Shown: piece by piece, positions 1-41,554 of the stretch
Layout of the letters: the number at the start of each line of letters is the position of its first letter
How positions within the stretch are numbered: position 1 is the first letter of the stretch
IMG/VR virus record: IMGVR_UViG_3300044838_000003
Location: 1-57,244 of that record
Direction: 5' to 3' (one strand)
Origin: a virus
Lineage: Duplodnaviria; Caudoviricetes
Length of the DNA: 57,244 nucleotides
Made by a program: the position numbers and the translations under genes
The notes under the pieces: model-generated
Told to the model about the DNA's origin: nothing
Databases searched by the model: none
The model's input: only the letters and a program-made list of their open reading frames with translations

Positions 1-148
1 CCTTGCAACCCCTGGGAGCCCAACATGGGCCATCGCCACGGTGATGGCACCACCACGTACCCGAACGGTGACGTGTTGACAGATGACGGTGAAGAGGCGT
101 AAGGTATCACTCATGGCAAAACCAACACACCAGCGGATGGCGATGCTC
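1..148. repeat. Terminal direct repeat (assembly overlap), copy 1; matches 57097-57244
   Basis: 1-148 aligns to 57097-57244 with 3 mismatches (positions 3, 19, 22); 23-148 is identical. Indicates a circular or concatemeric assembly. Confidence 0.95.
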
Positions 149-259
149 GCGAGGATTCGCGAGGAAGCTAGGCTTGACCGCTTGGCCGAAGACATGTACG
201 CTGACTTCAAAGAAGACCAAAGGGATGAGGAGTTCCACCGCTATGACGACCGCTACTGA
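113..259 (+). CDS. Small hypothetical protein (48 aa, MAKPTHQR...DDRY)
   Basis: Translated by hand; ATG 113 to TGA 259; fills the gap between the 56878-57198 gene (across the junction) and the MTase. Confidence 0.65.
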   Translation: MAKPTHQRMAMLARIREEARLDRLAEDMYADFKEDQRDEEFHRYDDRY

Positions 260-815
260 TTCGGCCGCGGTAACGACCGCGAGGCAGATCTTGGGGACTC
301 ATATCCCCCGCGTCGGTTCGCTGTTCTCCGGTGTCGGAGGCTTGGACATGGCGATCGAACAGTACTTCGGCGCCAGCACATCTTGGATGTGCGAGGCCAA
401 CCCCGAGGCCCGTAAAGTCTTGGGCGCCCACTGGCACAATGTGCCGATCTACCCCGACATCACCAAGCTCGATTGGCAGTCGTTGCCGCAGGTTGAGATA
501 CTCGCCGGCGGTTTCCCGTGCCAAGACGTGTCGTCCGCTGGACTCCGCAAGGGCATGGGTGAGGGTACCCGTTCGGGTCTCTGGCGGTACTTCGCCGAAG
601 GGATAGACGCTCTTCAGCCCAAGCTGGTCGTGATCGAGAACGTCAAGGGTCTGTTGACCCTGAAGGGCACCGATGGCCGCAAAGCCATCGAGACCGTACT
701 TGACGATCTGCACGACATCGGCTACGATCACCGCATGGGACTTTTCAAGGCATCGGATGCGGGAGCGCCGCACCGACGCGAGCGAGTGTTCATCCTCGCG
801 AGGCCAAAGGTATAA
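243..815 (+). CDS. C5-cytosine DNA methyltransferase, N-terminal catalytic part (motifs I-VIII)
   Basis: SLFSGVGG (I), GGFPCQD (IV), ENVKGL (VI), RRERVFI (VIII); GAGGAG RBS before ATG 243. Confidence 0.9.
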   Translation: MTTATDSAAVTTARQILGTHIPRVGSLFSGVGGLDMAIEQYFGASTSWMCEANPEARKVLGAHWHNVPIYPDITKLDWQSLPQVEILAGGFPCQDVSSAGLRKGMGEGTRSGLWRYFAEGIDALQPKLVVIENVKGLLTLKGTDGRKAIETVLDDLHDIGYDHRMGLFKASDAGAPHRRERVFILARPKV

Positions 816-28668: not shown

Positions 28669-31266
28669 CTATAGGATGCCGAAGGTGCTCAACGCCTGGT
28701 TGACCATCTTCACCTCGTCCAGCGCCTTGAACGCTGGGTCTTGAGGCTCAGACCATCCGACCGTGAACGTCCAGCCTCGGGAGCCGTCCTTGCCCCAGCC
28801 GTACTTGGCTCGGGAGACTCGCTCCATGAAGATGGTGTTCGCGACCGGATACTCGCGGAACGTGGTACCGATCCGGTCCCCGATGCCGAAGTCACCGTAG
28901 CCCTTCTCACCGAAGATGTAGGGTGCCGCGTCCGCTACCGTGATCTTATGCACGGTGCGGGCGCGGGTAGCCCAAATCTTGGCTCGAACAGCCATGAATG
29001 CACTAAGCGTAAATGCACGATCCGCACCGTCAGCCCAACCCTCGTAGTAGTGGAGGTCACCCAGAGAGGTGGGGTGCCCTTCCAATCCTGCGACGGGTAG
29101 CGTCAGCCCGCCGGGGCTGGCGCGCAGCGTGGGTACCTCCATGAAGGCCATGAAGGTGTCCTCGTAGAGGATCTTCGCTACGGCGTCCATGATACCGCCC
29201 AGGGGCGGGATGTCGATGGACGGTATGTGAACGTCTACGTTACCGCCTAGCCCGCCACCAACACCTACGGCCCCTGCTTCGGAGATGATGGTGTTGATTA
29301 TGCTGGTCAGGAAGTCGCCTGCCATGTTCACGCCCGCCGAAAACGCCTCGTTGACTCCGGGCATACTGTGTCCTCCGACGAGGAAACTGGTGTCGGTAGA
29401 CTCGAAGAACGTGAACTCAGACTCGGATACCCCGGTGAACATGCTGTCAGCGTATACAACGTGCGGAGCCTGCGGACTTGTTCCCAGGTAGTTCGGGGTG
29501 TAATACTCCCCAGGATACGTCGGGTCACCTGTGAAGATGTCGATGCCCTCGGTAGTGCCGTCGCCCGCTATGTTGACGACGGCCCTGAGCAACCCGGTGA
29601 GGAGCGAACCCCCAAAAGCGGTTTCCGTGCCCCAGCCTGACTTGTCCACGATGTCCCAGACCAGCACGAAGTGCCGAAGCGGGACCAGCGAGAACAGGTC
29701 TTCCACGAAGTCCAAGTTCAGCTCGCCTTGCAGGTCGCTGAACGGGTGGGGATCTTCGCCCTCGATGTAGCGTCGGCAGACCACGGTGAGCTGAGCGTCC
29801 TGTAGGTCCTTCTTGGCGACATCGTGCCACGACTTGAACCGCGAGAAGATGATCGTCAGGTTGGAATTGTCCGCTAGGAACGGGAACGGCTTGGTGATGT
29901 TGCGCCAGGTCGAGGTGTCAAAGGAGAACGGAATCCAGGATCGGATGTCCATTGGGTTGTCGGGCAGCGTCCAGAGGGACGTTTCCAACCTCATTAGGTT
30001 GACGAACAAGGTAACTAGGAGGCACCATTTGGCCGGTCCAAAGATTACCCACAGCTTGGGAAACTGCACTTCAGGGATAAGAAACGGGTTTGCCCAGACT
30101 AGGATGTGCTTTGCTTGCTCGTAGTCGTGCTTGAAGGTGATCGTCAGATAACGATCGCCCTCTTTGGTGTGGACGACCTTGTAGTTGTCCATGAACCCCG
30201 ACCAGCGATACCCCTGCTTGTCGATGGTGATCAGCACGTTGCGCTTCTCGCGGCCACGGAAGTCCATGACCCACTTCGCGAGGTAGTGGTCGAGCGACAG
30301 CTCTAGGGCTGCGGTGCCCGTATCGTTCTCCACGATCTCGTAGTCGATGTCCCGCCAGCCAGCGACCTCGCCGCGGAGTACGCCGTCTCCGTCCCACAGA
30401 CGAATCTTAGGGGGAGCCAGCCGACGACGCTCCTTCAGAGCGCGCTCGGCCATCGCGATGTTCCAGAGGCGTTCTGAGTCCTCTAGGCTGGTGATACCGC
30501 CGAGGGGGACGATGTTGGGTACGCCCTCGATGCGGTCGTACTTGATCTCGATCATCGGCCGCACCTTGGCGTCCATCGTGGACTGGTACGAGCTGACGAA
30601 GAAACCAAGCGGGTACTTGAAGTCGGTGATCGGGCAGGGATACGTGGTGTAGACCCGGTACTCGACCTGACCCTCGGTGTGCGAGAAATACTCGTCGGCC
30701 ACCACGTCTACGCCGTCGTAGGTCGGGTGGATCAGGTTCATCCCGAGGACAGCATTCTGACCGGCCAGCGTGCCTGTGCCCGCTAGGGTCTGGAGGATGT
30801 TATCCCAGGTCAGACCGGCCAAATCCGAAAGGACCGCGCTGCGATCCGGCCAGTCAGACCACCCGTCGTACTGCCTTTTGATGTCGAGCGTGGGGTGCGT
30901 CCAACTCGTCGGTTGATCCACCAAGTTGCGAAGAACGCCACCGTACTTACGGCCTGAGTTAGCAACCAGCACGATGTTAAGATCGCTCGCTGTTTTGCTG
31001 CTTGTCGGACCATAACGCTTCTCCCAGCTCTGGATCATAACCGCGCCGAAGCTGGCGCCGAACAGCGTGACGTGTCCTGGCGTGGCGATGATCTGCGCGT
31101 TGAGGTCGTCCACCAGTATGTCGAAGGCAGCCCCGTCCGGGAACAACTGCCAGTCGTTGTAGTAGTACGGCGTCACGGTGTTGCCGTTGGTGACCCAGCC
31201 CTTGAGCTTGTGGGTCATGTCCTGGGAGCCGAAGGCGCCGTCTACCGTGATCACCGTCGTAGTCAT
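28669..31266 (-). CDS. Minor tail (hub) protein, L5 gp28-like, with an N-terminal PE-PPE serine hydrolase domain
   Basis: C-terminal about 600 aa: PPKIRLWDGD, RWSG, WANPF..P..QFPK, GDFGIGDRIG; N-terminus: GASFG, RQYDGWSDWP, NAVLGMNLIHPTY. Confidence 0.88.
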   Translation of the reverse strand: MTTTVITVDGAFGSQDMTHKLKGWVTNGNTVTPYYYNDWQLFPDGAAFDILVDDLNAQIIATPGHVTLFGASFGAVMIQSWEKRYGPTSSKTASDLNIVLVANSGRKYGGVLRNLVDQPTSWTHPTLDIKRQYDGWSDWPDRSAVLSDLAGLTWDNILQTLAGTGTLAGQNAVLGMNLIHPTYDGVDVVADEYFSHTEGQVEYRVYTTYPCPITDFKYPLGFFVSSYQSTMDAKVRPMIEIKYDRIEGVPNIVPLGGITSLEDSERLWNIAMAERALKERRRLAPPKIRLWDGDGVLRGEVAGWRDIDYEIVENDTGTAALELSLDHYLAKWVMDFRGREKRNVLITIDKQGYRWSGFMDNYKVVHTKEGDRYLTITFKHDYEQAKHILVWANPFLIPEVQFPKLWVIFGPAKWCLLVTLFVNLMRLETSLWTLPDNPMDIRSWIPFSFDTSTWRNITKPFPFLADNSNLTIIFSRFKSWHDVAKKDLQDAQLTVVCRRYIEGEDPHPFSDLQGELNLDFVEDLFSLVPLRHFVLVWDIVDKSGWGTETAFGGSLLTGLLRAVVNIAGDGTTEGIDIFTGDPTYPGEYYTPNYLGTSPQAPHVVYADSMFTGVSESEFTFFESTDTSFLVGGHSMPGVNEAFSAGVNMAGDFLTSIINTIISEAGAVGVGGGLGGNVDVHIPSIDIPPLGGIMDAVAKILYEDTFMAFMEVPTLRASPGGLTLPVAGLEGHPTSLGDLHYYEGWADGADRAFTLSAFMAVRAKIWATRARTVHKITVADAAPYIFGEKGYGDFGIGDRIGTTFREYPVANTIFMERVSRAKYGWGKDGSRGWTFTVGWSEPQDPAFKALDEVKMVNQALSTFGIL

Positions 31267-31457
31267 CGGAATCCTATCCTCTTGCCTTCTTCGTAGTAGG
31301 GTTCCATGCGATCGGCTCTGAGAGGCTCTGTGTCGCGTTCAAACGCGCCGTTGGTATGAGTAGACCCATTCCACTCCGCTGACGAGTCAGCGTAGAGCGT
31401 GGGGGCTAGTTCTATACCGAACACCTCCGTCCCGAGGACGGAGATGCTCAGCCTCAC
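31263..31457 (-). CDS. Small hypothetical protein (64 aa) between the tail genes
   Basis: GTGA and ATGA overlaps with both neighbours. Confidence 0.55.
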   Translation of the reverse strand: MRLSISVLGTEVFGIELAPTLYADSSAEWNGSTHTNGAFERDTEPLRADRMEPYYEEGKRIGFR

Positions 31458-33445
31458 TTCTTTACACCCCACGGACGAGAATACGGCCGGGGAATCCGGA
31501 GGGTCACCATCTGACCCTCGACGGCCCCCGTCACCCGGATGTGGAAGTCCATCGCTCCGGTCCACTTGGGGATGTGGTTCTTGAACCTCACCCCGTTCAT
31601 CCGCGCCCACAGGGCGCTACCGGACTCTGACTTGACCTGCTCGACTCTGGGATCAGAGTCGATGAGGGCGTTCTCCGCGGGCGCTGTCGCGCCGTCGCGG
31701 ATCGTGATAGCCTCGATGTTCACCCCAGAGCCACCGGTTAGGGTGGAAGAGTCGGGAATGACCAACGGTACATCGAGACCGGAGATGTTCTGCTGGAACT
31801 CGATGATGTACGGCCACTCGCCCTGTACGTCGGTCAGGATCGTCGCACTCGGGCTGACGCCGCCGACCAGCGAGGCCGGGTCGATCGTGAGCTGCGGGAC
31901 GTTTACGCCCGCCTGGGTGCCGCCGAAGCGGATCGTGTACTTGGTGTTACCCTCGGTCGTGGTGTTGACCTGCATCCCCACCATCGCCCCGCCAGTAAGG
32001 TGGGTCGTGTCTACGGTGACCTGATTCTGGTTGATGCCCGCGACGTTGCCGCCGACGAACGTCAGCCGGAACGGCTGGTAGAGCTGGAAGAATCCGTCTT
32101 GGGTGACCACGATCTGGAAGACCCCGACGTTGGACAGCGCGCTGAGCGCGTTGCTGATGTCCAGAGCCGAGCAGTTGTAGGCTAGATGCCCGGTGGTCTG
32201 ACCGTTGAACGTGATGGTCCAATACCCGCCTGATGGCTCGCCAGTAAAGCTGATCGTCTGGACCTCGTTTGTAACCTCCGTCGCCTCGACGGAGATGTCG
32301 AAGAATCCCAGGTTGGGGAGCAGGCCAAGAGCGAGCTGAACGTCGTAGGGCCCGAGCCACGGCACGATCGGCGCCGTGAACTGACCATCGAAGCCCAGCT
32401 TATACGAGCCACCGGTAGGACCTCCTGTGAGGATGTACTCTTGTACCTCGTTGACCGGGGTACCGCGGGTGACGTTCACGTCGTTCACCGTCAGGTTGGG
32501 CAGAGCCTCTAGGGCCGTCTTGAGCGCCGCGTCGGTGATCGTCGGGCTGAGGTGGCCCGTAACCTCTCCGTCGAAGTCCAGAGTCCAGTAACCACCGGTC
32601 GGGTGGGCGTCACCCTTGATGGTGACGCGCTGGACCTCATTCGTCCGCAAGCCACCAATCAGGGAAGGCATTTTCAGCCTCCGGTCCACCGTACCGTTGT
32701 CCGGGAATGTCTCCGTATCGAGGTTGTAGTCCGGAAGTGTCCAGGTCACAGCAGGGCTGTTGGGTGCGCCTAGCCACGGGATACCGGGGACATAGGGCTC
32801 GGCAGGAGGGAGGGTACTCCCCGGTGCTGTCCACTTCGGGAATACTCCGTCCTGGTCGGTCGGGTTAGCGTGCGGTACCGAGATGGTCAGCTCCTCGAAA
32901 GGGAGCGTCTCCTGCGGCCACGGCCACGGTAGTGGGTTGGGGTCGAACGTGGTGTCGGTCGCCGTCACGGCCGAGAAGATAGCATCCTTCTCGTACCAGA
33001 ACGGGTCGCCGGCGATCAGGTGGATCGTCGCCTGATTGATCAGCCCGAGGTTCGGGTCGGTCTTCAGGTCCACTTCGTACTGCTCGCCCAGCCGCGCCTT
33101 GAGGACGCGCTGCGGCCACTCGGGGTGGGTGATCTTGATGAGCGAGTCGCGGTTGTAGTCGAACATCATCCGCAGCTCGGAGTCCCGGTAGGCCCAGGAC
33201 TCGTCATCGTCGTCCAAGATCCAGATCGGGAGTATGATGTCCCGTCGTAGAATCCTGTGTGACAGATAACGAGCCCCAGGCCAGTAACCGGGCTCTTCGT
33301 AGACAACCTTGGCCTGAGCGTCGTAGAGCTGCTGCGGGTCGGTGGCGAGGACGTAGCCCTCGTCACCCCAGCCTTCACCAGCGATGGTGATGTGCTTCCC
33401 GTTTGAGCCGACGATCTCAACGATGGTGTCGCGATTGATCGACAC
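31454..33445 (-). CDS. Distal tail protein (L5 gp27-like) with three inserted NEVQ...TGG domains
   Basis: Follows the tape measure; YEEPG..PGARY, AGDPFWY, IDSDPR..Q, LRIPRPYSRPWG; about 320-aa insertion. Confidence 0.88.
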   Translation of the reverse strand: MSINRDTIVEIVGSNGKHITIAGEGWGDEGYVLATDPQQLYDAQAKVVYEEPGYWPGARYLSHRILRRDIILPIWILDDDDESWAYRDSELRMMFDYNRDSLIKITHPEWPQRVLKARLGEQYEVDLKTDPNLGLINQATIHLIAGDPFWYEKDAIFSAVTATDTTFDPNPLPWPWPQETLPFEELTISVPHANPTDQDGVFPKWTAPGSTLPPAEPYVPGIPWLGAPNSPAVTWTLPDYNLDTETFPDNGTVDRRLKMPSLIGGLRTNEVQRVTIKGDAHPTGGYWTLDFDGEVTGHLSPTITDAALKTALEALPNLTVNDVNVTRGTPVNEVQEYILTGGPTGGSYKLGFDGQFTAPIVPWLGPYDVQLALGLLPNLGFFDISVEATEVTNEVQTISFTGEPSGGYWTITFNGQTTGHLAYNCSALDISNALSALSNVGVFQIVVTQDGFFQLYQPFRLTFVGGNVAGINQNQVTVDTTHLTGGAMVGMQVNTTTEGNTKYTIRFGGTQAGVNVPQLTIDPASLVGGVSPSATILTDVQGEWPYIIEFQQNISGLDVPLVIPDSSTLTGGSGVNIEAITIRDGATAPAENALIDSDPRVEQVKSESGSALWARMNGVRFKNHIPKWTGAMDFHIRVTGAVEGQMVTLRIPRPYSRPWGVKK

Positions 33446-33486
33446 TCTGCCTCCTGCTCTGTGCGTGGCTGTTACCACGGCCTCGC

Positions 33487-36400
33487 TTAGTTGCTACGCT
33501 GCGTGTGTTCCATAGACTCGCGAGTCTTCACCCGCTCGTAGTTCTTCATGGTCCCGTCGTGGTCCATCGACTGGAAGTTGTAGGTGTTTCCACCTTGACC
33601 GCCACCGAAAGCACCTTGGGCTACGCTGTTCACCGCCGAGGACAGGAAGCCGATGCCGTAGTCGGCCAGCTTCTCTACGGCTCCGTTGCCGCTCATCCCG
33701 AGGTCGGTCTGTAGCTGACTGACGTTGGCCATCGCCATGCCCTTCAGCGCGTCCAGTCCGGACGCAAGAGCCTGCGTGATCATCGAGGCAGCCTGCGAGG
33801 TCGAGTCGGAACCCGAACCCTTGCCGCCGAACTGCGAGTTGTACTTGGACTCCTTCGAGTCCAGGCCCAGCTCCGTCCGGAGATCCTGAAGCTGCTTCAT
33901 CTGGGCTTGGATACCCGCACGGCCGGTCTTGTCCTTGGGGTCGAGAGATTCCTTTGACTGCTTCAGACGGTCGTACTGGATACCGATCGCCTGTAGCTCA
34001 CGACCGATCTGACCCTTCAGTTCGGGCGACACTACGCCGCTCTCCTGCATGGTCTCGGAGACCCGCTGAGCAAGCTCCTGGGCCTTGGAGACGACGCCTT
34101 GGAAGCCTTCCGACATCCCGTCGTCAAACCCCTGAGCGAAGTCCTGTCCGGACTTGTGCGACTTCTTGGAGGGCGAGTGTGCGTCGATACCAAACGGACC
34201 CGCCAGGGCCGCAGCGACACCGCTACCGAGGGCCTGAGCCGCCGCTAGAGCGGCTGGCGCCGAGGCAGCTATACCGCCAGCCAGACCAGTACCCAGAGCA
34301 ACACCAGCGGCGTTACCCGCTGGGCCGAGCCCTTGTAGGCTAGCCTGAATCTGTCCGACCATCGCGGAGATGCTGCCGTTTACCTGACCCGCCGCCGCCT
34401 GCGTAGAGGCGATCAGCGGCTCCCAGATCTTCTCGCTACCCGGAGGTAGCTTGGGGACCTCGATCTTCGGTGCTTTTATCTCGCCCTGAGAGCCCCCAGG
34501 AGCGATCGGAGCGACCGGTGCGGGTGGATGTGGCTGGATCGGGTTACCAGGGCCTCCTGGGAACAACCCGGCCGTACTAGGACCCTGTACAATCTGGACG
34601 GGGACCGGTGGTGAGCCGGGAGCCAGAGGCTTACCGGCGTTGAACGGCTCGGGGGCCGCGTTAGCGGTCGGCGTACCGCCGCCTAGCAGCATCGAGATCA
34701 GGTTTCCACCGATGGTCTGTTCGGTGACGAACTTCTTAGCTCCGTCGAACATGTGGCCGAGGAAGTCCTTAGCCTTATCACCGATCCACTGAACCGGGTC
34801 GTCTACGAACCCGACCTTTTGGTTCATCGCCTCCTCGTGGGTGACGGGTACCGCGGGAGAGCCAGCAGTAGGACCGGGCTTGGTACCGTAGGGGGCGTTC
34901 GGGTCGGGCTTGTCCGAAGACGGGATCAGCTTCAGTATCGTGGCTAGACCCTCGAAGACCGGACCCATCCGAGCGACCTGCTCGGCTAGGTGCTCTAGTC
35001 CCGTCAGGAAGTCGGTGATACCGCGGATCAGGTTGGGATCGCCCGCGAGCTGCAAACCCTTTTCCAGCAGGTTTCCAACGAAGTCCTTGATGCCGTTCAG
35101 CACCGGCTTCATGTTGGAGATCGCGGTATCCAGCTCCGAGCTACCGGGGACCTCCTTGCCAAACCAGTCCTGCTTCGGCTTGGAGATCTTGCCGACCCAG
35201 TTCTGGAACTGACCAGCCCACTCGGTCATGGTGTTGGCTAGACCGGGGAGGTGGTCTCCGACGTTGACGATCAGGTTCGACATAGCCGACGTGAACAACT
35301 GCAACGCGGGGGAGAGGTTGGTCAGCATCGTACCGACGCTGTTCGTGAAGCGGTCGAAGCCTTCGGTGAACGCGGGGGTAGCTAGGACGTTGCCCAGACC
35401 CTCTGCCATCTTCACGAGGCCCTGTGCTACGAACGGCAGACCGCGGGTAAGCTGCGGGATGACGCCGGCAATCTGCTGGAAGACCGGCTTCAGGCCGGTC
35501 GCGAAGACATCCGAGACGTTGGTCTGTAGCTCGCTGAGTACGGAGCCTAGGCCCTGCTTGGCCTTGCCCTTCGGCTTGCCGTCCTTGTCGAACTTCTGCT
35601 CATCCTTGAGGATACCAGAGTCGTCCAGTGCCTTCTTCACGCCCTTGAAGCCCAGCGCGAATACGCCAAGCGGTAGAGCGAAGCCAGCGACCAGCGCGGG
35701 CAAGCCGACTAGGGCCTGCGATACCAGAGCTAGGGCGGGAGCCAGCAGCGACAGACCGGCGACGATGATGCCGATCGAGCCGAATGCGCCCAGCCCACCG
35801 ATGTTGGGTACCAGGTCGGGGGCCTTGAAGTTGCTGATGGCGTTACCGCCGCGGTCCATCAGGCGGCTGAGGAAGTTGCCCTGCTTTTGGTCACCCAGGT
35901 GCTTGTTGAATATGCGGTCTAGGTCACCCTCAGCGGACTGCATCAGGTTGTGGAGGGACGCCTCATCACGCTGCATCTTCACCTTGATGGTGAAGTTCTC
36001 GTGGGCCAGGCGCAGCCGCATCTCTTCGATCTCGTGCTCATCCATACGTGGCTTGAGCTGGATACGCTGCTCCATGTCCGCGAGGTCGCGGCGTGCTTGG
36101 GCCTGCGGCGACCACTCCCGCATGGTGTTGGCTAGGCGCTGTTGGGCGCGACCGATGTCCAGCGACTCGTCGGTCAGGAACCGGTCGATACGCTTCTTGG
36201 CGAGGTCGAGCCCGAACGTGTCGGCCTCAACCTTGATCTTGATCTTCTCGCCCAGCTCGGCCTCTTTGGCTAGAGCGTGGACCTTCGCACGGAGACCCTT
36301 GCCATCGGCGTCGAGGTCGATCCGCATGTCGTACTTCTCGTTGGTGACCTCTTCGATCTTCCGACGAGCCTTGCTGGTATCCGCGTCAACAGGTACCTCG

Positions 36401-36519
36401 ATGTCCTTGCCAGCGCCTAGGGCGCCAGCCCGGACCTCTTCGCGGAAACCCGTCATGTCCGGGACAACGCGAATCGAAAGGCGTCCTACTTCCTTGTCGA
36501 TCCCGGCACCACTAGCCAT
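33487..36519 (-). CDS. Tape measure protein
   Basis: 1010 aa; EVGRLSIRVVPD..GFR start; helical, Ala/Gly-rich; HSPSK motif; follows the chaperones. Confidence 0.93.
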   Translation of the reverse strand: MASGAGIDKEVGRLSIRVVPDMTGFREEVRAGALGAGKDIEVPVDADTSKARRKIEEVTNEKYDMRIDLDADGKGLRAKVHALAKEAELGEKIKIKVEADTFGLDLAKKRIDRFLTDESLDIGRAQQRLANTMREWSPQAQARRDLADMEQRIQLKPRMDEHEIEEMRLRLAHENFTIKVKMQRDEASLHNLMQSAEGDLDRIFNKHLGDQKQGNFLSRLMDRGGNAISNFKAPDLVPNIGGLGAFGSIGIIVAGLSLLAPALALVSQALVGLPALVAGFALPLGVFALGFKGVKKALDDSGILKDEQKFDKDGKPKGKAKQGLGSVLSELQTNVSDVFATGLKPVFQQIAGVIPQLTRGLPFVAQGLVKMAEGLGNVLATPAFTEGFDRFTNSVGTMLTNLSPALQLFTSAMSNLIVNVGDHLPGLANTMTEWAGQFQNWVGKISKPKQDWFGKEVPGSSELDTAISNMKPVLNGIKDFVGNLLEKGLQLAGDPNLIRGITDFLTGLEHLAEQVARMGPVFEGLATILKLIPSSDKPDPNAPYGTKPGPTAGSPAVPVTHEEAMNQKVGFVDDPVQWIGDKAKDFLGHMFDGAKKFVTEQTIGGNLISMLLGGGTPTANAAPEPFNAGKPLAPGSPPVPVQIVQGPSTAGLFPGGPGNPIQPHPPAPVAPIAPGGSQGEIKAPKIEVPKLPPGSEKIWEPLIASTQAAAGQVNGSISAMVGQIQASLQGLGPAGNAAGVALGTGLAGGIAASAPAALAAAQALGSGVAAALAGPFGIDAHSPSKKSHKSGQDFAQGFDDGMSEGFQGVVSKAQELAQRVSETMQESGVVSPELKGQIGRELQAIGIQYDRLKQSKESLDPKDKTGRAGIQAQMKQLQDLRTELGLDSKESKYNSQFGGKGSGSDSTSQAASMITQALASGLDALKGMAMANVSQLQTDLGMSGNGAVEKLADYGIGFLSSAVNSVAQGAFGGGQGGNTYNFQSMDHDGTMKNYERVKTRESMEHTQRSN

Positions 36520-36520
36520 G

Positions 36521-37006
36521 TCAGGCTCCTGTCTGCTGCTTTGCTTCCGCTGCTGCGGCTAATCTCTTGCGCTTGTTGCGCTTAGCCTGCTGCAACATAT
36601 CGCCGAACGATCCGGCCTTGAACGTGGTTTTCTGGTCATCCGGTAGGGTACCGGGGTCTGGCTTGTCACCAGGGCGTGGGTAACGCTTCGGGGGTGACGG
36701 TACTGGCTTGTTCGGGTCGCGGTGGGCCATGATCAGGATGTAGGCTAGGTCCTGTAGGCTGTCCACCATGTCGGCCGCTGTGTAGCGATCCTGGTCCCAG
36801 CCGCGGTACTGGATGCCGCCGCGTTGCGCCGCCACGAACGCCGAAGCGATCGGGAGGTTAGCGACGTGGAGCAGAGCCCACCGTGGGTCCAGCGGGTCGT
36901 CCTCCGAGAACAAGTCCCGGAGGTCGATCCGATAGTAGTGCATCAAGTCTGGGACTAGGTGCTGGCCGTACTCGTCTATGAGACGAGCCAGCTCTAGGCT
37001 TCCCCC
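36521..37006 (-). CDS. Tail assembly chaperone, -1 frameshift extension (G-T product)
   Basis: LARLIDEYG..L..DL..YY..DLRD; reached through the slippery site. Confidence 0.85.
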   Translation of the reverse strand, partial: GGSLELARLIDEYGQHLVPDLMHYYRIDLRDLFSEDDPLDPRWALLHVANLPIASAFVAAQRGGIQYRGWDQDRYTAADMVDSLQDLAYILIMAHRDPNKPVPSPPKRYPRPGDKPDPGTLPDDQKTTFKAGSFGDMLQQAKRNKRKRLAAAAEAKQQTGA

Positions 37007-37380
37007 GCTTGGGTGTTCTCCATCCACTTGCCCAGGATCTCTCCGAGCAGGTTGGCTGTGTAGAGTGGGTCATCCGACGCAACGGCGTCCAGGATGAGCT
37101 GTGCGTCGTCGGTGATCTGCAACAGCACCGCGCTGATGGTCTCAACCAGCAGCTCGTAGCCAGCGATCTCGTCGCCGTCGTCGCCGTCACCGATCTCGTC
37201 AACCTGCTTCAGCGTCTCCCAGACCTTCTCTCGGGTCTTCTTTGGCAGCCGGAAGATCGACGGCAGCTCGACCTCGATGTCCTCGCCCAGCACGAAGCGG
37301 GTGGGACCGAGGCGGCGCCGCGTGGCGGTCGCTAGGTCGTTCAGGGTGTAGGTGTTCGACGGTGTTTCAGTCTTGGACAT
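36994..37380 (-). CDS. Tail assembly chaperone
   Basis: GGAAAGG RBS; ends W..NTQAGEA, typical of cluster A. Confidence 0.88.
   Translation of the reverse strand: MSKTETPSNTYTLNDLATATRRRLGPTRFVLGEDIEVELPSIFRLPKKTREKVWETLKQVDEIGDGDDGDEIAGYELLVETISAVLLQITDDAQLILDAVASDDPLYTANLLGEILGKWMENTQAGEA
37000..37006 (-). other. Programmed -1 frameshift slippery site GGGGGAA
   Basis: GCG GGG GAA GCC TAG at the end of the chaperone; the -1 frame is open to 36521. Confidence 0.85.
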
Positions 37381-37450
37381 GACGGGCCTTTCCTGTAGGT
37401 GATGATAGCGGCGGGCGTTATTCTCACTTGTGGGTCTAAGTGAGTACATG

Positions 37451-37505: not shown

Positions 37506-38399
37506 CTAGCTCGGCACGGGGCCGATCAGGTCGTTGGAGATCCAGTCGTACAGACGCCGAGTCCCCAGGTTCAGGAACGCTGCGCGGATCGGTAGAGACG
37601 AGAAGTCATCAATCGGGATTTCCACCGCGGCGTCACGAGCGATGCTCGCCTTGCTCGCGTAGCAACCCAGGTTGACTTCCTGGTCCACGAGGACCGTCAG
37701 GAAGCTCTTCTCGACGGGGGTCCAGTCTCCGGAGACACCGAACACGCCATCGGTCTCTGCGACATCTGCACCGAAGTACAGTTCCAGAGTACGGCGGTTC
37801 CACTGCTCAAGCTGAGCCTTCACCGAGTCCTCGATGGGCTGAGAGCCCCAGACCTGACGCAGACGCTGCTTTTGCCAAGAGCCCTTCATCTCAAGCTTGC
37901 CACCCTCGTAGCCAAACTCAGGAAGCTTGGTACGGCTTGAGTGGCCGAGGTTGATCCAGCCGTTGGCGGCGGTGGGCGTGGTGATCGCGACTGCTGGCGT
38001 GGTGCCACCAGTCAGGCTGGCCGCGGACCCGGTGACCACAACGGTCTCTCCGAGCAGAGCGCCAGCGAACGCGATGTCCAGCCCAGATCCGTCGCTGAGC
38101 GACGTTCCGGTGACCGTGGTGTTACCAGCCCCGACCGAGGCGAGAGCCTCGACAGCGGCCTGCACAGCGGCCTTGCTGGCGTTGTAGGCAATTCCGGCCG
38201 TGGTGTCTCCACCGACCGTCAGGGTGAACGTGCCACCCGTTGGTGTTCCGGTGATCTTGACCTTCGTGACCTGACCACCGAAGGTGGCGGCGTCGAATTC
38301 GTCAATCTCATCGGGAGTCGGTGCAACCGCTCCGAGGGTATCGTTGATGTAGAGATACCCAGTAGCGGCGACAACAACTTCGCTGTCATCGAGCGACAT
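37506..38399 (-). CDS. Major tail (tube) protein with one inserted TGG domain
   Basis: MSLDD..V.VAATGY, GW.NLGH.SR..LPEFG.EGG, KGSWQK; about 100-aa insertion. Confidence 0.92.
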   Translation of the reverse strand: MSLDDSEVVVAATGYLYINDTLGAVAPTPDEIDEFDAATFGGQVTKVKITGTPTGGTFTLTVGGDTTAGIAYNASKAAVQAAVEALASVGAGNTTVTGTSLSDGSGLDIAFAGALLGETVVVTGSAASLTGGTTPAVAITTPTAANGWINLGHSSRTKLPEFGYEGGKLEMKGSWQKQRLRQVWGSQPIEDSVKAQLEQWNRRTLELYFGADVAETDGVFGVSGDWTPVEKSFLTVLVDQEVNLGCYASKASIARDAAVEIPIDDFSSLPIRAAFLNLGTRRLYDWISNDLIGPVPS

Positions 38400-40369: not shown

Positions 40370-41554
40370 CTACGCAGCCGCAACCACGGCGTGAGGTGAA
40401 GTTCCACCGGTCAGGGTGTTGTCCACGCCGAGCGAGATGGTCGCAGGCGACACGATGAGCCCGGAGGTCACGGTAACGTCGGCAGCGAGGATGCTGTCGT
40501 CCACGGCGACGATCGCGGCCTTGATGGCAGCGTCGTTCGCGTTGAAGGCGATCGCGGCAGTCGAGACGCCGTTTACCTTCAGGGTGTAGGTACCACCGGT
40601 CGGTGCGCCAGTGATCGTGAGCTGGTAGCTCAGCGGTCCATCGACCAGCTTGTAGAACGCGGCAACGTCGTTGATGAGCAAACCGAACTCAGCTTCGACC
40701 AGGACCGCGACCAAGTTGTGCTGCCAGAGCGAGATGAACTCGGGGGTGTCGAGAGTCCCGAAGTTCAGGGTGGCCTGATCGGAGACCGAGTAGCTAAGCC
40801 CGCCGACCTGTCCCCAGACGATCTGGTTGAAGTCACCAGCGAAGCCCAGGACGTTGCCAGAGGCAACGGTCTCGGCCAAGATGGACGGACGGCCGACGAT
40901 GCGGCCTTCGCGGTTGACAGGGTTCTCCTGCGAGAACGGGCTGTCAATCCACAGAGGGCGACCGTTGTTGTCGTAGGACCCGTTCAGGATCGGCTCAACG
41001 GTATCGTCCAGCAGAGTCGCGGTCCACTTCTTGTGGTCATCAGCAAGGGCCCGTAGACCGCGCACCGCGGTGGCGTCGTACAGGTTGTTGTTGATGGCGA
41101 CCGTCTTCGTGGTCTCCGCGAGGTAGTGAGCGAACGGGCTGTCCACGCCGTACAGAACGGCCTGGTCGAATGCCTGACCGATCGCCGTGGCGACCTTGGT
41201 CCGCATGACGTTCAGGTAGTTGGCAGGGTTCGCCCGCACAACTTCCGAGGACGCCGTGAAGATGGTGGCAATCTTGTGGGGGACCACAGTCTGCTTGCCG
41301 AAGTTACCCTTGGTGAGGGGCTTCATTTCACCTTCGCCGACCCATCCGGCACTGACATCGCCAGTCCAGTGGGGGATCTTGACGCCTGTAGCGCCCATCG
41401 GGATCTTGCGAGCGAAACGCTGCACGATCGAGGTCTTCTCCGCGAGAGCGAAGTAGTCCTGCGCCTGCTCGGGGTCGAGGTAGCCCTCGAACATCGTATC
41501 CCCAGTCTGGGCGATACGGCTGTCGTTGGCACCGGCCAAGTGTCCGGTTGTCAT
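40370..41554 (-). CDS. Major capsid protein (HK97 fold) with a C-terminal TGG-domain extension
   Basis: AEKTSIVQ, WVGEGEMKP, PHKIA, LWQHNLVAV..EAE.G; extra about 85 aa at the C-terminus. Confidence 0.95.
   Translation of the reverse strand: MTTGHLAGANDSRIAQTGDTMFEGYLDPEQAQDYFALAEKTSIVQRFARKIPMGATGVKIPHWTGDVSAGWVGEGEMKPLTKGNFGKQTVVPHKIATIFTASSEVVRANPANYLNVMRTKVATAIGQAFDQAVLYGVDSPFAHYLAETTKTVAINNNLYDATAVRGLRALADDHKKWTATLLDDTVEPILNGSYDNNGRPLWIDSPFSQENPVNREGRIVGRPSILAETVASGNVLGFAGDFNQIVWGQVGGLSYSVSDQATLNFGTLDTPEFISLWQHNLVAVLVEAEFGLLINDVAAFYKLVDGPLSYQLTITGAPTGGTYTLKVNGVSTAAIAFNANDAAIKAAIVAVDDSILAADVTVTSGLIVSPATISLGVDNTLTGGTSPHAVVAAA

What the first reader, a model, noticed from the sequence alone, without database searches (positions are those of the whole stretch)
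31691..32641. Russian-doll nested domain insertions in the distal tail protein
Seen: three consecutive N-half repeats (NEVQ...P(T/S)GG.(W/Y).(L/I).F.G..T...AL..L.N....(I/V).V) are followed by three consecutive C-half repeats ((F/Y).(L/I).F....G.(N/D)...D...L.GG). The single copy in the tail tube contains one N-half plus one C-half. The order is therefore best read as N1-N2-N3-C3-C2-C1, each domain inserted into a loop of the previous one. Inference: a rigid, doubly tethered telescoping arm projecting from the baseplate, whose length changes by recursive insertion. The tip loop (QDGFFQLYQP) is aromatic and could bind receptor.
Basis: partly seen in the sequence, partly recalled or inferred. Interest (0 to 1): 0.75.

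Follow-up and report, generated by a model that had tools for sequence, protein, structure and literature searches.

The report
Nested decoration domains in phage Dit
The distal tail protein of this mycobacteriophage-like virus carries three copies of a small surface domain nested one inside the next like Russian dolls, an arrangement already present in the solved structure of the related phage Bxb1 protein gp23.

Summary
Residues 280-596 of the 674-aa protein (window 31454..33478, minus strand) hold three N-half repeats followed by three C-half repeats. N-N alignment z-scores are 15.6-23.8, C-C 6.6-11.2, and N-C 2.0 or less.

The protein is the distal tail protein (Dit). It sits after the tape measure gene and is a full-length homolog of Bxb1 gp23 "Tail tip cage" (PDB 9D93, E 7.8e-164).

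AlphaFold2 models, made without templates, show each N-half pairing with its mirror C-half to form one roughly 100-aa "CTE-like" domain:
- N1+C1 spans model residues 278..596, with 90 residues aligned at rmsd 2.1 A.
- N2+C2 spans 343..554, with 85 aligned at rmsd 2.3 A.
- N3+C3 spans 403..510.
- The N2-C2 fragment fits the Bxb1 cryo-EM chain at 1.9 A over 210 of 214 residues.

The nested reading is therefore supported. [quoted passage not shown]

Among the Dit relatives examined, 0, 1 or 3 copies occur. By sequence order, nests of 2 and 4 occur in unrelated proteins. Receptor binding by the tip loop is untested.

The parts
31454..33478 (-). Distal tail protein (Dit) gene, homolog of Bxb1 gp23 'tail tip cage'. 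The long ORF is 674 aa. The probable true start is the GTG at 33445, giving 663 aa.
   Evidence: ORF. (9d93_Ma, E 7.8e-164; Douge Dit 8zdo_m, E 2e-21). (phrog_106 minor tail protein, E 1.7e-75). (VIA: 9d93_Mc Z 31.2; Douge Dit Z 24.6; SPP1 Dit Z 12.7). (start codon).
32642..33478 (-). Dit core, N-terminal part (residues 1-279), up to the insertion point in the C-terminal Dit domain.
   Evidence: Douge Dit residues 7-163 and 182-219 align to residues 20-177 and 241-277; 278 of 290 Douge Dit residues align over model range 15..674.
32453..32641 (-). N1, the N-half of the outer nested domain D1 (residues 280-342).
   Evidence: It pairs with C1: rows 4 and 5 (ranges 278..596 and 280..597).
32270..32452 (-). 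N2, the N-half of the middle domain D2 (residues 343-403).
   Evidence: It pairs with C2: rows 3 and 6 (fragment ranges 1..212 and 1..209).
32072..32269 (-). N3, the N-half of the inner domain D3 (residues 404-469). Its last 10 residues (32072..32101) are the aromatic tip loop.
   Evidence: row 13 and row 2 (ranges 403..508 and 403..510). Loop conservation.
31940..32071 (-). C3, the C-half of the inner domain D3 (residues 470-513).
31811..31939 (-). C2, the C-half of the middle domain D2 (residues 514-556).
31691..31810 (-). C1, the C-half of the outer domain D1 (residues 557-596).
   Evidence: The C-halves of single-copy Dit relatives score best against the C1 class in 9 of 9 cases.
31457..31690 (-). 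Return of the chain into the Dit core (residues 597-674).
   Evidence: Douge Dit residues 217-287 align to residues 600-671.
37974..38270 (-). Single N+C copy of the same domain in the tail tube protein gene (37506..38399). Here it is an insert near the N-terminus.
   Evidence: the core is homologous to Bxb1 gp19 residues 45-192, E 3.2e-44. The domain matches gp19's C-terminal extension (203-264) and gp23.
40373..40624 (-). C-terminal copy of the same domain on the major capsid protein gene (40370..41554).
   Evidence: N-half, iE 5e-16. (Bxb1 major capsid protein, E 5.9e-143; its tail also matches gp23 and gp19).
33487..36519 (-). Tape measure protein gene, directly upstream. This gives the synteny tape measure - Dit - hub.
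   Evidence: The name rests on the 1010-aa ORF's position and Gly/Ala-rich composition, so it is an inference.
28669..31266 (-). Baseplate hub gene, directly downstream.
   Evidence: 9d93_Oa 'Baseplate hub, gp25', E 1.4e-267, residues 254-865. (PF14594, E 1e-117).

Best explanation
The gene encodes the distal tail protein (Dit) of a siphophage related to cluster-A mycobacteriophages. It is an ortholog-like relative of Bxb1 gp23.

A 317-residue module is inserted at one point of the Dit C-terminal domain. The module consists of three copies of a roughly 100-residue 'CTE-like' decoration domain. The same domain sits once on the tail tube protein and once on the capsid protein of this virus.

The copies are not in tandem. 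D2 is inserted into the loop between the N-half and C-half of D1, and D3 is inserted into the same loop of D2. The chain therefore runs out through N1, N2 and N3, turns at an aromatic tip loop, and runs back through C3, C2 and C1 into the Dit core.

Shown here:
- the repeat order;
- the pairing N1+C1, N2+C2, N3+C3 in AlphaFold2 models;
- the 1.9 A fit of D2-D3 to the Bxb1 cryo-EM chain.

Inferred:
- Six such two-stranded, doubly tethered rods hang from the hexameric Dit ring and form the bars of a cage or barrel around the tail tip, as named for Bxb1.
- The exposed domains probably add weak adhesion to the cell envelope, as decoration domains of this kind are generally thought to do.
- The tip loop is either the contact that closes the cage or a binding site.
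For: Identity as Dit and gp23 homolog:
- 9d93_Ma E 7.8e-164, colinear across all six halves. Douge Dit matches only residues 20-177, 241-277 and 600-671, so the repeats are an insert.
- Foldseek 9d93_Mc E 2.8e-74, TM 0.65. Douge Dit TM (target) 0.81.
- Z 31.2, 24.6 and 12.7 to Bxb1 gp23, Douge Dit and SPP1 Dit.
- gene order tape measure - Dit - hub.

Nested pairing:
-, rows 4-5: N1+C1 as one domain. 90 and 88 residues aligned at rmsd 2.1 and 2.6 A, ranges 278..596 and 280..597.
-, rows 3 and 6: N2+C2. 85 and 88 residues aligned, ranges 1..212 and 1..209 of the fragment.
- row 13 and row 2: N3+C3.
- row 1: the fragment model fits Bxb1 gp23 residues 330-567 at Z 24.9, rmsd 1.9 A, over 210 of 214 residues.
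- The AlphaFold2 runs used no templates. From my recollection, its weights predate the 2024 release of 9D93, so the agreement is independent.

Covariation. Of the 103 N-C pairs among the top 200 MI-APC pairs, 56 fall in N1C1, N2C2 or N3C3. The other five possible pairings take 18 to 37.

Comparative evidence:
- 7 long non-Dit proteins carry the same halves as ordinary tandem NCNC arrays, so N+C is the domain unit.
- Dit relatives carry 0, 1 or 3 copies at the same site.

Literature. [quoted passage not shown]
Against: - I had no coordinates or contact map. The structural aligner reports only the first and last aligned residue, so the split alignments are inferred from range, aligned length and rmsd.
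- The whole-protein fit to Bxb1 gp23 is loose (rmsd 7.6-8.4 A, TM 0.65). The direction of the arm relative to the Dit ring in this phage is therefore not established.
- The covariation signal is modest (effective number of sequences 68). It also shows off-diagonal blocks: N2C3 15, N1C2 11.
- No test of assembly, cage formation or binding was possible.
- The function of the CTE-like domain is not established in anything I could read. The Bxb1 paper itself was not held. Paper supplements are closed.
Confidence: 0.85

Rival explanations
1. Two tandem arrays. Three N-type units and three C-type units each fold on their own, giving six small domains in a row with no nesting.
For: - N and C halves share no detectable similarity.
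- In one unrelated protein (P0125), N-type units occur without a matching return C-half, so an N-half may be able to exist without a partner.
Against: - Single solved domains of 85-93 residues superpose at 2.1-2.3 A on N1+C1 and on N2+C2.
- The Bxb1 cryo-EM chain fits the nested model at 1.9 A.
- In the tail tube, the capsid and the tandem arrays the unit is always N followed by C.
Confidence: 0.03
2. The halves do complement each other, but in another register. Either the pairing is crossed (N1 with C3, N3 with C1), or halves are swapped between neighbouring subunits of the hexamer.
For: - The halves are similar enough that any N could in principle fit any C.
- Covariation shows some off-diagonal signal: N2C3 15 and N1C2 11 of 103 pairs.
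Against: - Ranges 403..508, 343..554 and 278..596 each give a complete domain within one chain.
- One chain of the cryo-EM model (9d93_Ma) covers D2-D3 at 1.9 A.
- The linkers between successive halves are 2-6 residues long (secondary structure). That is too short for crossed pairing.
- The nested pairing collects 56 covarying pairs, against 18-37 for the other five pairings.
Confidence: 0.04
3. Same nested topology, but the main role is receptor binding. The arm is an adhesin, and its aromatic tip loop or domain faces bind a mycobacterial envelope glycan or lipid.
For: - The tip-loop aromatic positions are conserved in 61, 71, 84 and 98 of 100 relatives.
- The fold is shared with exposed decoration domains of capsids, tail tubes and sheaths, and with flagellin and FliD outer domains.
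- Dits with inserted binding modules are known in phages of lactic acid bacteria (recalled; no call).
- 5 of 100 relatives in alignment A1 carry a further 45-50-residue hydrophobic, glycine-rich insert in D3.
Against: - No binding test was possible.
- Two of the conserved positions (P469 and the aromatic at 470) begin the first strand of every C-half, so they are structural.
- In Bxb1 the protein is named as a cage, and a preprint describes it as shaping the barrel. The tip could simply dock on another tail-tip protein.
Confidence: 0.3

Closest known systems
Mycobacteriophage Bxb1 gp23, 'Tail tip cage' (PDB 9D93 chains M; Freeman et al., Cell 2025, cited, not readable here)
   Same: - Full-length homolog: E 7.8e-164, about 41-43% identity.
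- Same N1N2N3C3C2C1 order.
- Same position after the tape measure gene.
- The D2-D3 model fits it at 1.9 A over 210 residues.
   Different: - Bxb1 has about 20 extra residues in D3 after the first C3 strand (alignment gap).
- In Bxb1 the tail-tube copy of the domain is a C-terminal extension. Here it is an insert near the N-terminus.
- The hub downstream here carries an extra N-terminal domain of about 250 residues.
Classical siphophage Dit (SPP1 gp19.1, 2X8K; Douge gp17, 8ZDO)
   Same: The Dit core fold is shared: Z 24.6 with 278 of 290 residues aligned (Douge), and Z 12.7 (SPP1). Gene order is the same.
   Different: These have no insert. Douge residues 217-219 correspond to the point where 317 residues are inserted here.
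'Evolved' Dits of lactic-acid-bacteria phages with carbohydrate-binding modules inserted in the C-terminal domain (recalled from the literature; not searched)
   Same: A Dit whose C-terminal domain carries an inserted, outward-facing module.
   Different: - The inserted fold here is the CTE-like decoration domain.
- It is present three times and self-nested.
- Carbohydrate binding is not shown.
Flagellin (D0-D1-D2-D3) and the cap protein FliD
   Same: - Works alike. The chain goes out and comes back, so outer domains are insertions in inner ones. That this is how flagellin is organised is recalled.
- The domain fold resembles FliD D2-D3 and flagellin D2/D3, at Z 5-7 with 84-100 residues aligned. 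Two-domain alignments cover 154-172 residues at Z 5.2-5.5.
   Different: - No sequence relationship was detected.
- The Z values lie in the range the tool warns may reflect only a common arrangement.
- In flagellin the nested domains are of different kinds. Here one domain is nested in copies of itself.
Decoration domains on the Bxb1 capsid C-terminus (9D9X), the Bxb1 tail tube extension (9D94), Patience gp22 minor capsid protein (8GIU), and insert domains of myophage sheaths (A-1(L) 8KEE, Milano 8FOY, Mu 9KHY)
   Same: Same roughly 90-100-residue fold. Z 10-12.2 at rmsd 2.1-2.6 A to the mycobacteriophage examples, and Z 7-8 to the sheath inserts. Sequence matches.
   Different: Those are single copies, terminal or inserted once.

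Membership tests
Siphophage distal tail protein (Dit) | Gene lies directly after the tape measure gene and before the baseplate hub (Tal) gene. | tested here: met
   (1010-aa ORF ends 9 nt upstream). (the downstream gene matches Bxb1 baseplate hub gp25, E 1.4e-267).
Siphophage distal tail protein (Dit) | Dit fold: an N-terminal ring-forming domain plus a C-terminal domain. | tested here: met
   Douge Dit Z 24.6, rmsd 3.7, 278 of 290 residues aligned. SPP1 Dit Z 12.7. Lactococcal phage p2 Dit Z 11.2; phrog_33 Dit, E 1.3e-4.
Siphophage distal tail protein (Dit) | Forms a hexameric ring between the last tail-tube ring and the hub trimer. | not testable with these tools
   Stated for Bxb1 and others in preprint PMC13252515. 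No assembly prediction was run here.
Bxb1 gp23-type 'tail tip cage' Dit | Full-length sequence homology to gp23. | tested here: met
   E 7.8e-164. Two stretches cover residues 14-483 and 476-672.
Bxb1 gp23-type 'tail tip cage' Dit | Three CTE-like domains inserted in the Dit. | tested here: met
   (NNNCCC order). (each N/C pair superposes on a single solved domain). (the preprint's description of Bxb1).
Bxb1 gp23-type 'tail tip cage' Dit | The arms enclose the tail tip as a cage or barrel in the virion. | not testable with these tools
   Only monomer models were made. The whole-chain fit to 9d93_Mc is rmsd 7.6 A.
CTE-like decoration domain (no Pfam model) | A roughly 100-residue fold shared with the Bxb1 tail tube extension and capsid C-terminal domain. 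| tested here: met
   (Z 12.2 and 11.7 to the Bxb1 capsid domain; Z 10.0 to Patience gp22). (Z 11.6, 11.0 and 11.0). Pfam finds no family.
Evolved Dit with carbohydrate-binding module | The inserted module binds host saccharide. | not testable with these tools
   No binding assay was possible. The family was not searched structurally by name.
Flagellin / FliD outer domains | Homology of the domain, not only a similar arrangement. | tested here: inconclusive
   Z 5-7, 7-15% identity. This is within the range the tool flags as possibly only a common arrangement.

The most novel reading that the evidence does not exclude
The CTE-like decoration domain is a recursively self-inserting module, not a one-off in the Bxb1 Dit.

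By sequence order it forms nests of depth 1, 2, 3 and 4 in unrelated proteins:
- Depth 2: P0134-like proteins and the RHS-repeat protein P0254.
- Depth 3: the Dits.
- Depth 4: P0189, with four N-halves at 50-51-residue spacing followed by four C-halves.

The split is at two different loops. In the Dits and P0254 it follows the last N-half strand. In P0189 and P0134 it lies one strand earlier. Nesting would therefore have arisen at least twice.

This would be a general, evolvable way to build stiff, doubly tethered rods whose length is set in steps of one domain. I found no description of it in the searchable literature (0 papers), but I could not read the Bxb1 paper.
Probability: 0.45. Interest if true: 0.55.

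Novelty: new member of a known kind. Interest (0 to 1): 0.35.

Why it matters
Self-nesting of one domain to three levels is a rare and tidy example of domain insertion as a way of building length. It explains why a plain repeat search sees 'half repeats' in a puzzling order.

For this window it changes little. The protein can now be annotated as a Bxb1 gp23-type tail-tip-cage Dit, and the same domain can be marked on the capsid and tail tube proteins.

The wider pattern would interest protein-evolution and phage-engineering groups if confirmed by structures. That pattern is nests of depth 2 and 4 elsewhere, two insertion loops, and Dits with 0, 1 or 3 copies. It suggests the cage bars can be lengthened or shortened in whole-domain steps.

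Tried and rejected
- Pfam on the protein: no family at E up to 1.
- Megablast against phages: only a 111-nt match at about 81% identity in 5 records.
- DNA-level repeats in the gene: only 15-19-nt matches. The copies are therefore old, and no recombination scar is visible.
- Reading the Bxb1 Cell paper by PMC id, DOI and PubMed id: not held. The Jabs preprint and the PNAS perspective say nothing on gp23 domains.
- Literature searches. 'Bxb1' + 'tail tip cage': 0 papers. 'nested domain' + 'distal tail protein': 0. 'mycobacteriophage' + 'nested' + 'domain insertion': 0. 'CTE-like' + 'mycobacteriophage': 1, the preprint already used.
- Asking which of N1, N2 or N3 the N-half of single-copy Dits resembles: ambiguous. 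N1 scored best in 3 of 9, N3 in 5, N2 in 1. Only the C-half is clear (C1 in 9 of 9), and that may partly reflect flanking Dit sequence.
- Two-copy or four-copy Dits: none among 133 Dit-core proteins or among the 40 rows sampled from 1105 phage records. Both sets were retrieved with the three-copy query, so they are biased.
It was rerun in faster form.
- I considered using the complex predictor on the window's own halves or on arm-arm contacts. I rejected this as adding little beyond the monomer models and the solved homolog.
Full report
**Observation**

The finding's coordinates, 31691..32641 on the minus strand, are residues 280-596 of a 674-residue ORF at 31454..33478. NEVQ begins at residues 280, 343 and 404. 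Three shorter units begin at 470, 514 and 557, each ending in L(T/V)GG at 494, 537 and 580.

Local alignment against 300 shuffles gave these z-scores:
- N-halves among themselves: 15.6-23.8.
- C-halves among themselves: 6.6-11.2.
- All nine N-versus-C pairs: -0.4 to 2.0.

There are therefore two different half-types, three of each, in the order N N N C C C.

Half-specific HMMs were run over every six-frame ORF of the window. Besides these six halves they found:
- one N and one C in the tail tube gene (37506..38399, minus strand);
- one N at the C-terminus of the major capsid gene (40370..41554, minus strand).

The likely true start is the GTG at 33445, which lies 4 nt after an AGGAGG. The 94%-identical relative P0002 begins there. 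I keep the long-ORF numbering.

**What the protein is**

It lies 9 nt after a 1010-residue tape-measure-like ORF. It lies before a gene whose product matches the Bxb1 baseplate hub gp25 (E 1.4e-267) and Pfam PF14594.

By sequence it matches three solved chains:
- PDB 9d93_Ma, 'Tail tip cage, gp23' of mycobacteriophage Bxb1: E 7.8e-164, colinear through all six halves.
- The Douge distal tail protein gp17: only residues 20-177, 241-277 and 600-671 match.
- The Bxb1 tail tube gp19: only at N3.

The repeats are therefore a 317-residue insert at a single point of the C-terminal Dit domain.

PHROGs gives phrog_106, minor tail protein (E 1.7e-75). It also gives weaker hits of the repeat region to tail sheath and major tail protein families. 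Pfam has no model for the protein.

tblastn against the phage collection found 1105 records, nearly all from Mycobacterium, Rhodococcus and Gordonia phages. All were below 60% identity, and 478 covered at least 80% of the query. DNA similarity to any deposited phage is negligible.

**Topology**

I aligned the protein with 99 full-length relatives (A1) and folded it with AlphaFold2 without templates. Mean pLDDT was 85.9, with 85-97 across the insert. Foldseek and the structural aligner place the model on Bxb1 gp23 (E 2.8e-74, TM 0.65; Z 31.2) and on the Douge and SPP1 Dits (Z 24.6 and 12.7).

The decisive rows are the single-domain targets:
[quoted passage not shown] The first and last aligned model residues are 278 and 596. 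A second entry gives 88 residues at 2.6 A over 280..597.
- Ninety residues at 2 A cannot be spread over 319 residues unless the N1 and C1 halves sit together as one domain.
- The Patience gp22 domain aligns with 85 residues at 2.1 A on 403..508, which is N3+C3.

To see the middle domain I folded residues 343-556 alone (alignment A2, in register by its invariant columns). Mean pLDDT was 93.6 and pTM 0.82. The results were:
- The Patience domain aligns with 85 residues at 2.3 A, Z 11.0, over fragment residues 1..212. That is N2+C2.
- The capsid domain aligns over 61..168. That is N3+C3.
- The whole fragment fits Bxb1 gp23 residues 330-567 at Z 24.9, rmsd 1.9 A, over 210 of 214 residues.

From my recollection the AlphaFold2 weights predate the 2024 release of 9D93, so this agreement between prediction and cryo-EM is independent.

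Secondary structure shows only 2-6 residues between the last strand of one half and the first strand of the next. This fits a tight two-stranded crossing between domains.

A covariation count on A1 gives weak but concordant support. The effective number of sequences was 68. Of the 103 N-C pairs among the top 200 MI-APC pairs, 56 lie in N1C1, N2C2 or N3C3. The five alternative pairings take 18-37.

Limits of this evidence:
- I never saw coordinates.
- The aligner gives only the ends of a range.
- The full chain fits Bxb1 gp23 loosely (7.6-8.4 A), so the set of the arm on the ring is uncertain.

**Comparative evidence**

In the first set of 121 proteins (the query plus 120 hits):
- 104 have NNNCCC.
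- 9 have NC. These are 445-462 residues long and include proteins named as minor tail proteins of Mycobacterium phages.
- 1 is a truncated NNN.
- 7 long non-Dit proteins carry ordinary tandem NCNC arrays, some with C-halves missed by the model.

N+C is therefore the unit everywhere else, and only nesting can reconcile that unit with NNNCCC.

After the exhaustive representative search (2819 hits at E up to 0.001), 133 of the 265 proteins in hand carry the Dit core:
- 105 are NNNCCC.
- 9 are NC.
- 16 have no copy.
- 2 have N only.
- 1 is a truncated NNN.
- None has two or four copies.

These sets were found with a three-copy query and are biased. The C-half of the single-copy Dits scores best against the C1 class in 9 of 9 cases. 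The N-half is ambiguous. This suggests, weakly, that the outer domain is the one retained in one-copy Dits.

**Function**

The depositors call Bxb1 gp23 a tail tip cage. [quoted passage not shown] I could not read the Bxb1 paper, and supplements are closed. I therefore cannot say whether the nesting itself has been described.

My reading is that six nested rods hang from the Dit hexamer and form the bars of the cage. That is an inference by homology.

The fold is that of exposed decoration domains: the Bxb1 capsid C-terminus, the Bxb1 tail tube extension, the Patience minor capsid protein and myophage sheath inserts. More distantly (Z 5-7) it resembles the outer domains of flagellin and FliD. 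An adhesive role is plausible but untested.

In the tip loop, aromatic residues are kept in 61, 71, 84 and 98 of 100 relatives at positions 463, 464, 467 and 470. P469 is kept in 98 of 100. P469 and the aromatic at 470 open the first strand of every C-half, including in tandem arrays, so they are structural. The two aromatics before them are specific to the D3 loop. They could serve either docking or binding.

**Beyond the Dit**

Spacing between successive N-halves in non-Dit proteins is mostly 80-120 residues, as expected for complete tandem domains. In 36 cases it is under 80. Inspection showed the following:
- P0189 (1280 aa): four N-halves at 50-51-residue spacing, followed by four C-type units.
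- P0134 and its like: N N C C.
- The RHS-repeat protein P0254: N N C C.
- P0125: units of an extra N-type piece plus a full domain, with no return half. This remains unexplained.

In P0189 and P0134 the split lies one strand earlier than in the Dits.

I tested whether the N-block and the C-block of P0189 are predicted to associate. The verdict was weak support.
- Score 0.60 (runs 0.58-0.61). The best of 3 controls scored 0.00.
- The runs agree in at least 99% of contacts, and the partner's pLDDT is at least 85.
- Calibration: the mark was reached by 51 of 78 solved complexes and 2 of 108 mismatched pairs. A score of 0.60 or under was reached by only 5 of those 78 solved complexes, and by all 4 mismatches that passed (of 180).
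- Each block's pLDDT fell from 86-91 to 36-51 when the other block was replaced.
- A like arrangement is solved (gp23), so the pass may reflect likeness only.

**Verdict**

The modestly new element is the suggestion that self-nesting of this domain recurs at other depths and at another loop in unrelated proteins.

Noticed in passing
window 37506..38399 (-), residues about 37-146 of the tail tube protein: The decoration domain sits as an insert near the N-terminus of the tail tube protein. In the homologous Bxb1 gp19 it is a C-terminal extension. The core aligns 146-294 to gp19 45-192, and the domain aligns to gp19 203-264. The same module has therefore been placed at different sites in orthologous proteins.
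   Followed up: partly
window 40370..41554 (-), last 85 residues or so: The major capsid protein (Bxb1 major capsid homolog, E 5.9e-143) ends in a copy of the same domain. Capsid, tail tube and Dit of one virion therefore all display it.
   Followed up: partly
window 28669..31266 (-), residues 1-253 of the 865-aa baseplate hub: The hub has an N-terminal extension that Bxb1 gp25 lacks; the match starts at residue 254. The extension hits the Pfam PE-PPE domain (PF08237, E 4.9e-7, residues 53-144). It contains a G-x-S-x-G-like motif (read from the translation). This may be a virion-borne serine hydrolase at the tail tip.
   Followed up: no
relatives P0016, P0022, P0023, P0041, P0087 (also P0029); corresponds to window residues about 476-484: Five of the 100 aligned relatives carry a further 45-50-residue hydrophobic, glycine-rich insert inside the innermost domain, after the first C3 strand. 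P0029 has a different insert in N3. This is a further level of insertion at the far end of the arm. Bxb1 gp23 has about 20 extra residues at the same place.
   Followed up: partly
P0189 residues 134-545; P0134 residues 131-330; P0254 residues 1777-1976: Nested order of the same halves occurs outside Dits. NNNN followed by four C-type units in P0189. NNCC in P0134-like proteins and in an RHS-repeat protein. P0189 and P0134 are split at a different loop from the Dits. For the complex prediction of the P0189 N-block with its C-block, (weak support, 0.60 versus 0.00).
   Followed up: partly
P0125 residues 1031-1487: Repeating units of an N-type piece, then a complete N+C domain, with no return C-half for the first piece. 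An N-half may sometimes stand without a partner. This is unexplained.
   Followed up: no
window 33445 versus 33478: The longest ORF starts at the GTG at 33478. A GTG at 33445 lies 4 nt after an AGGAGG and matches the start of the closest relative. Residues 1-13 have pLDDT under 50.
   Followed up: yes
window 36521..37449 (-): Two overlapping ORFs (151 aa and 168 aa) lie between the tail tube and tape measure genes. This is the usual place of the tail assembly chaperone pair made by a programmed frameshift. Not examined.
   Followed up: no
phage record NC_028914.1 (Sheen), hit H6: The best phage-collection relative of this Dit (47.9% identity) lies under a feature annotated 'tail sheath'. This is probably a misannotation caused by the shared decoration domain, which also hits a sheath PHROG.
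   Followed up: no
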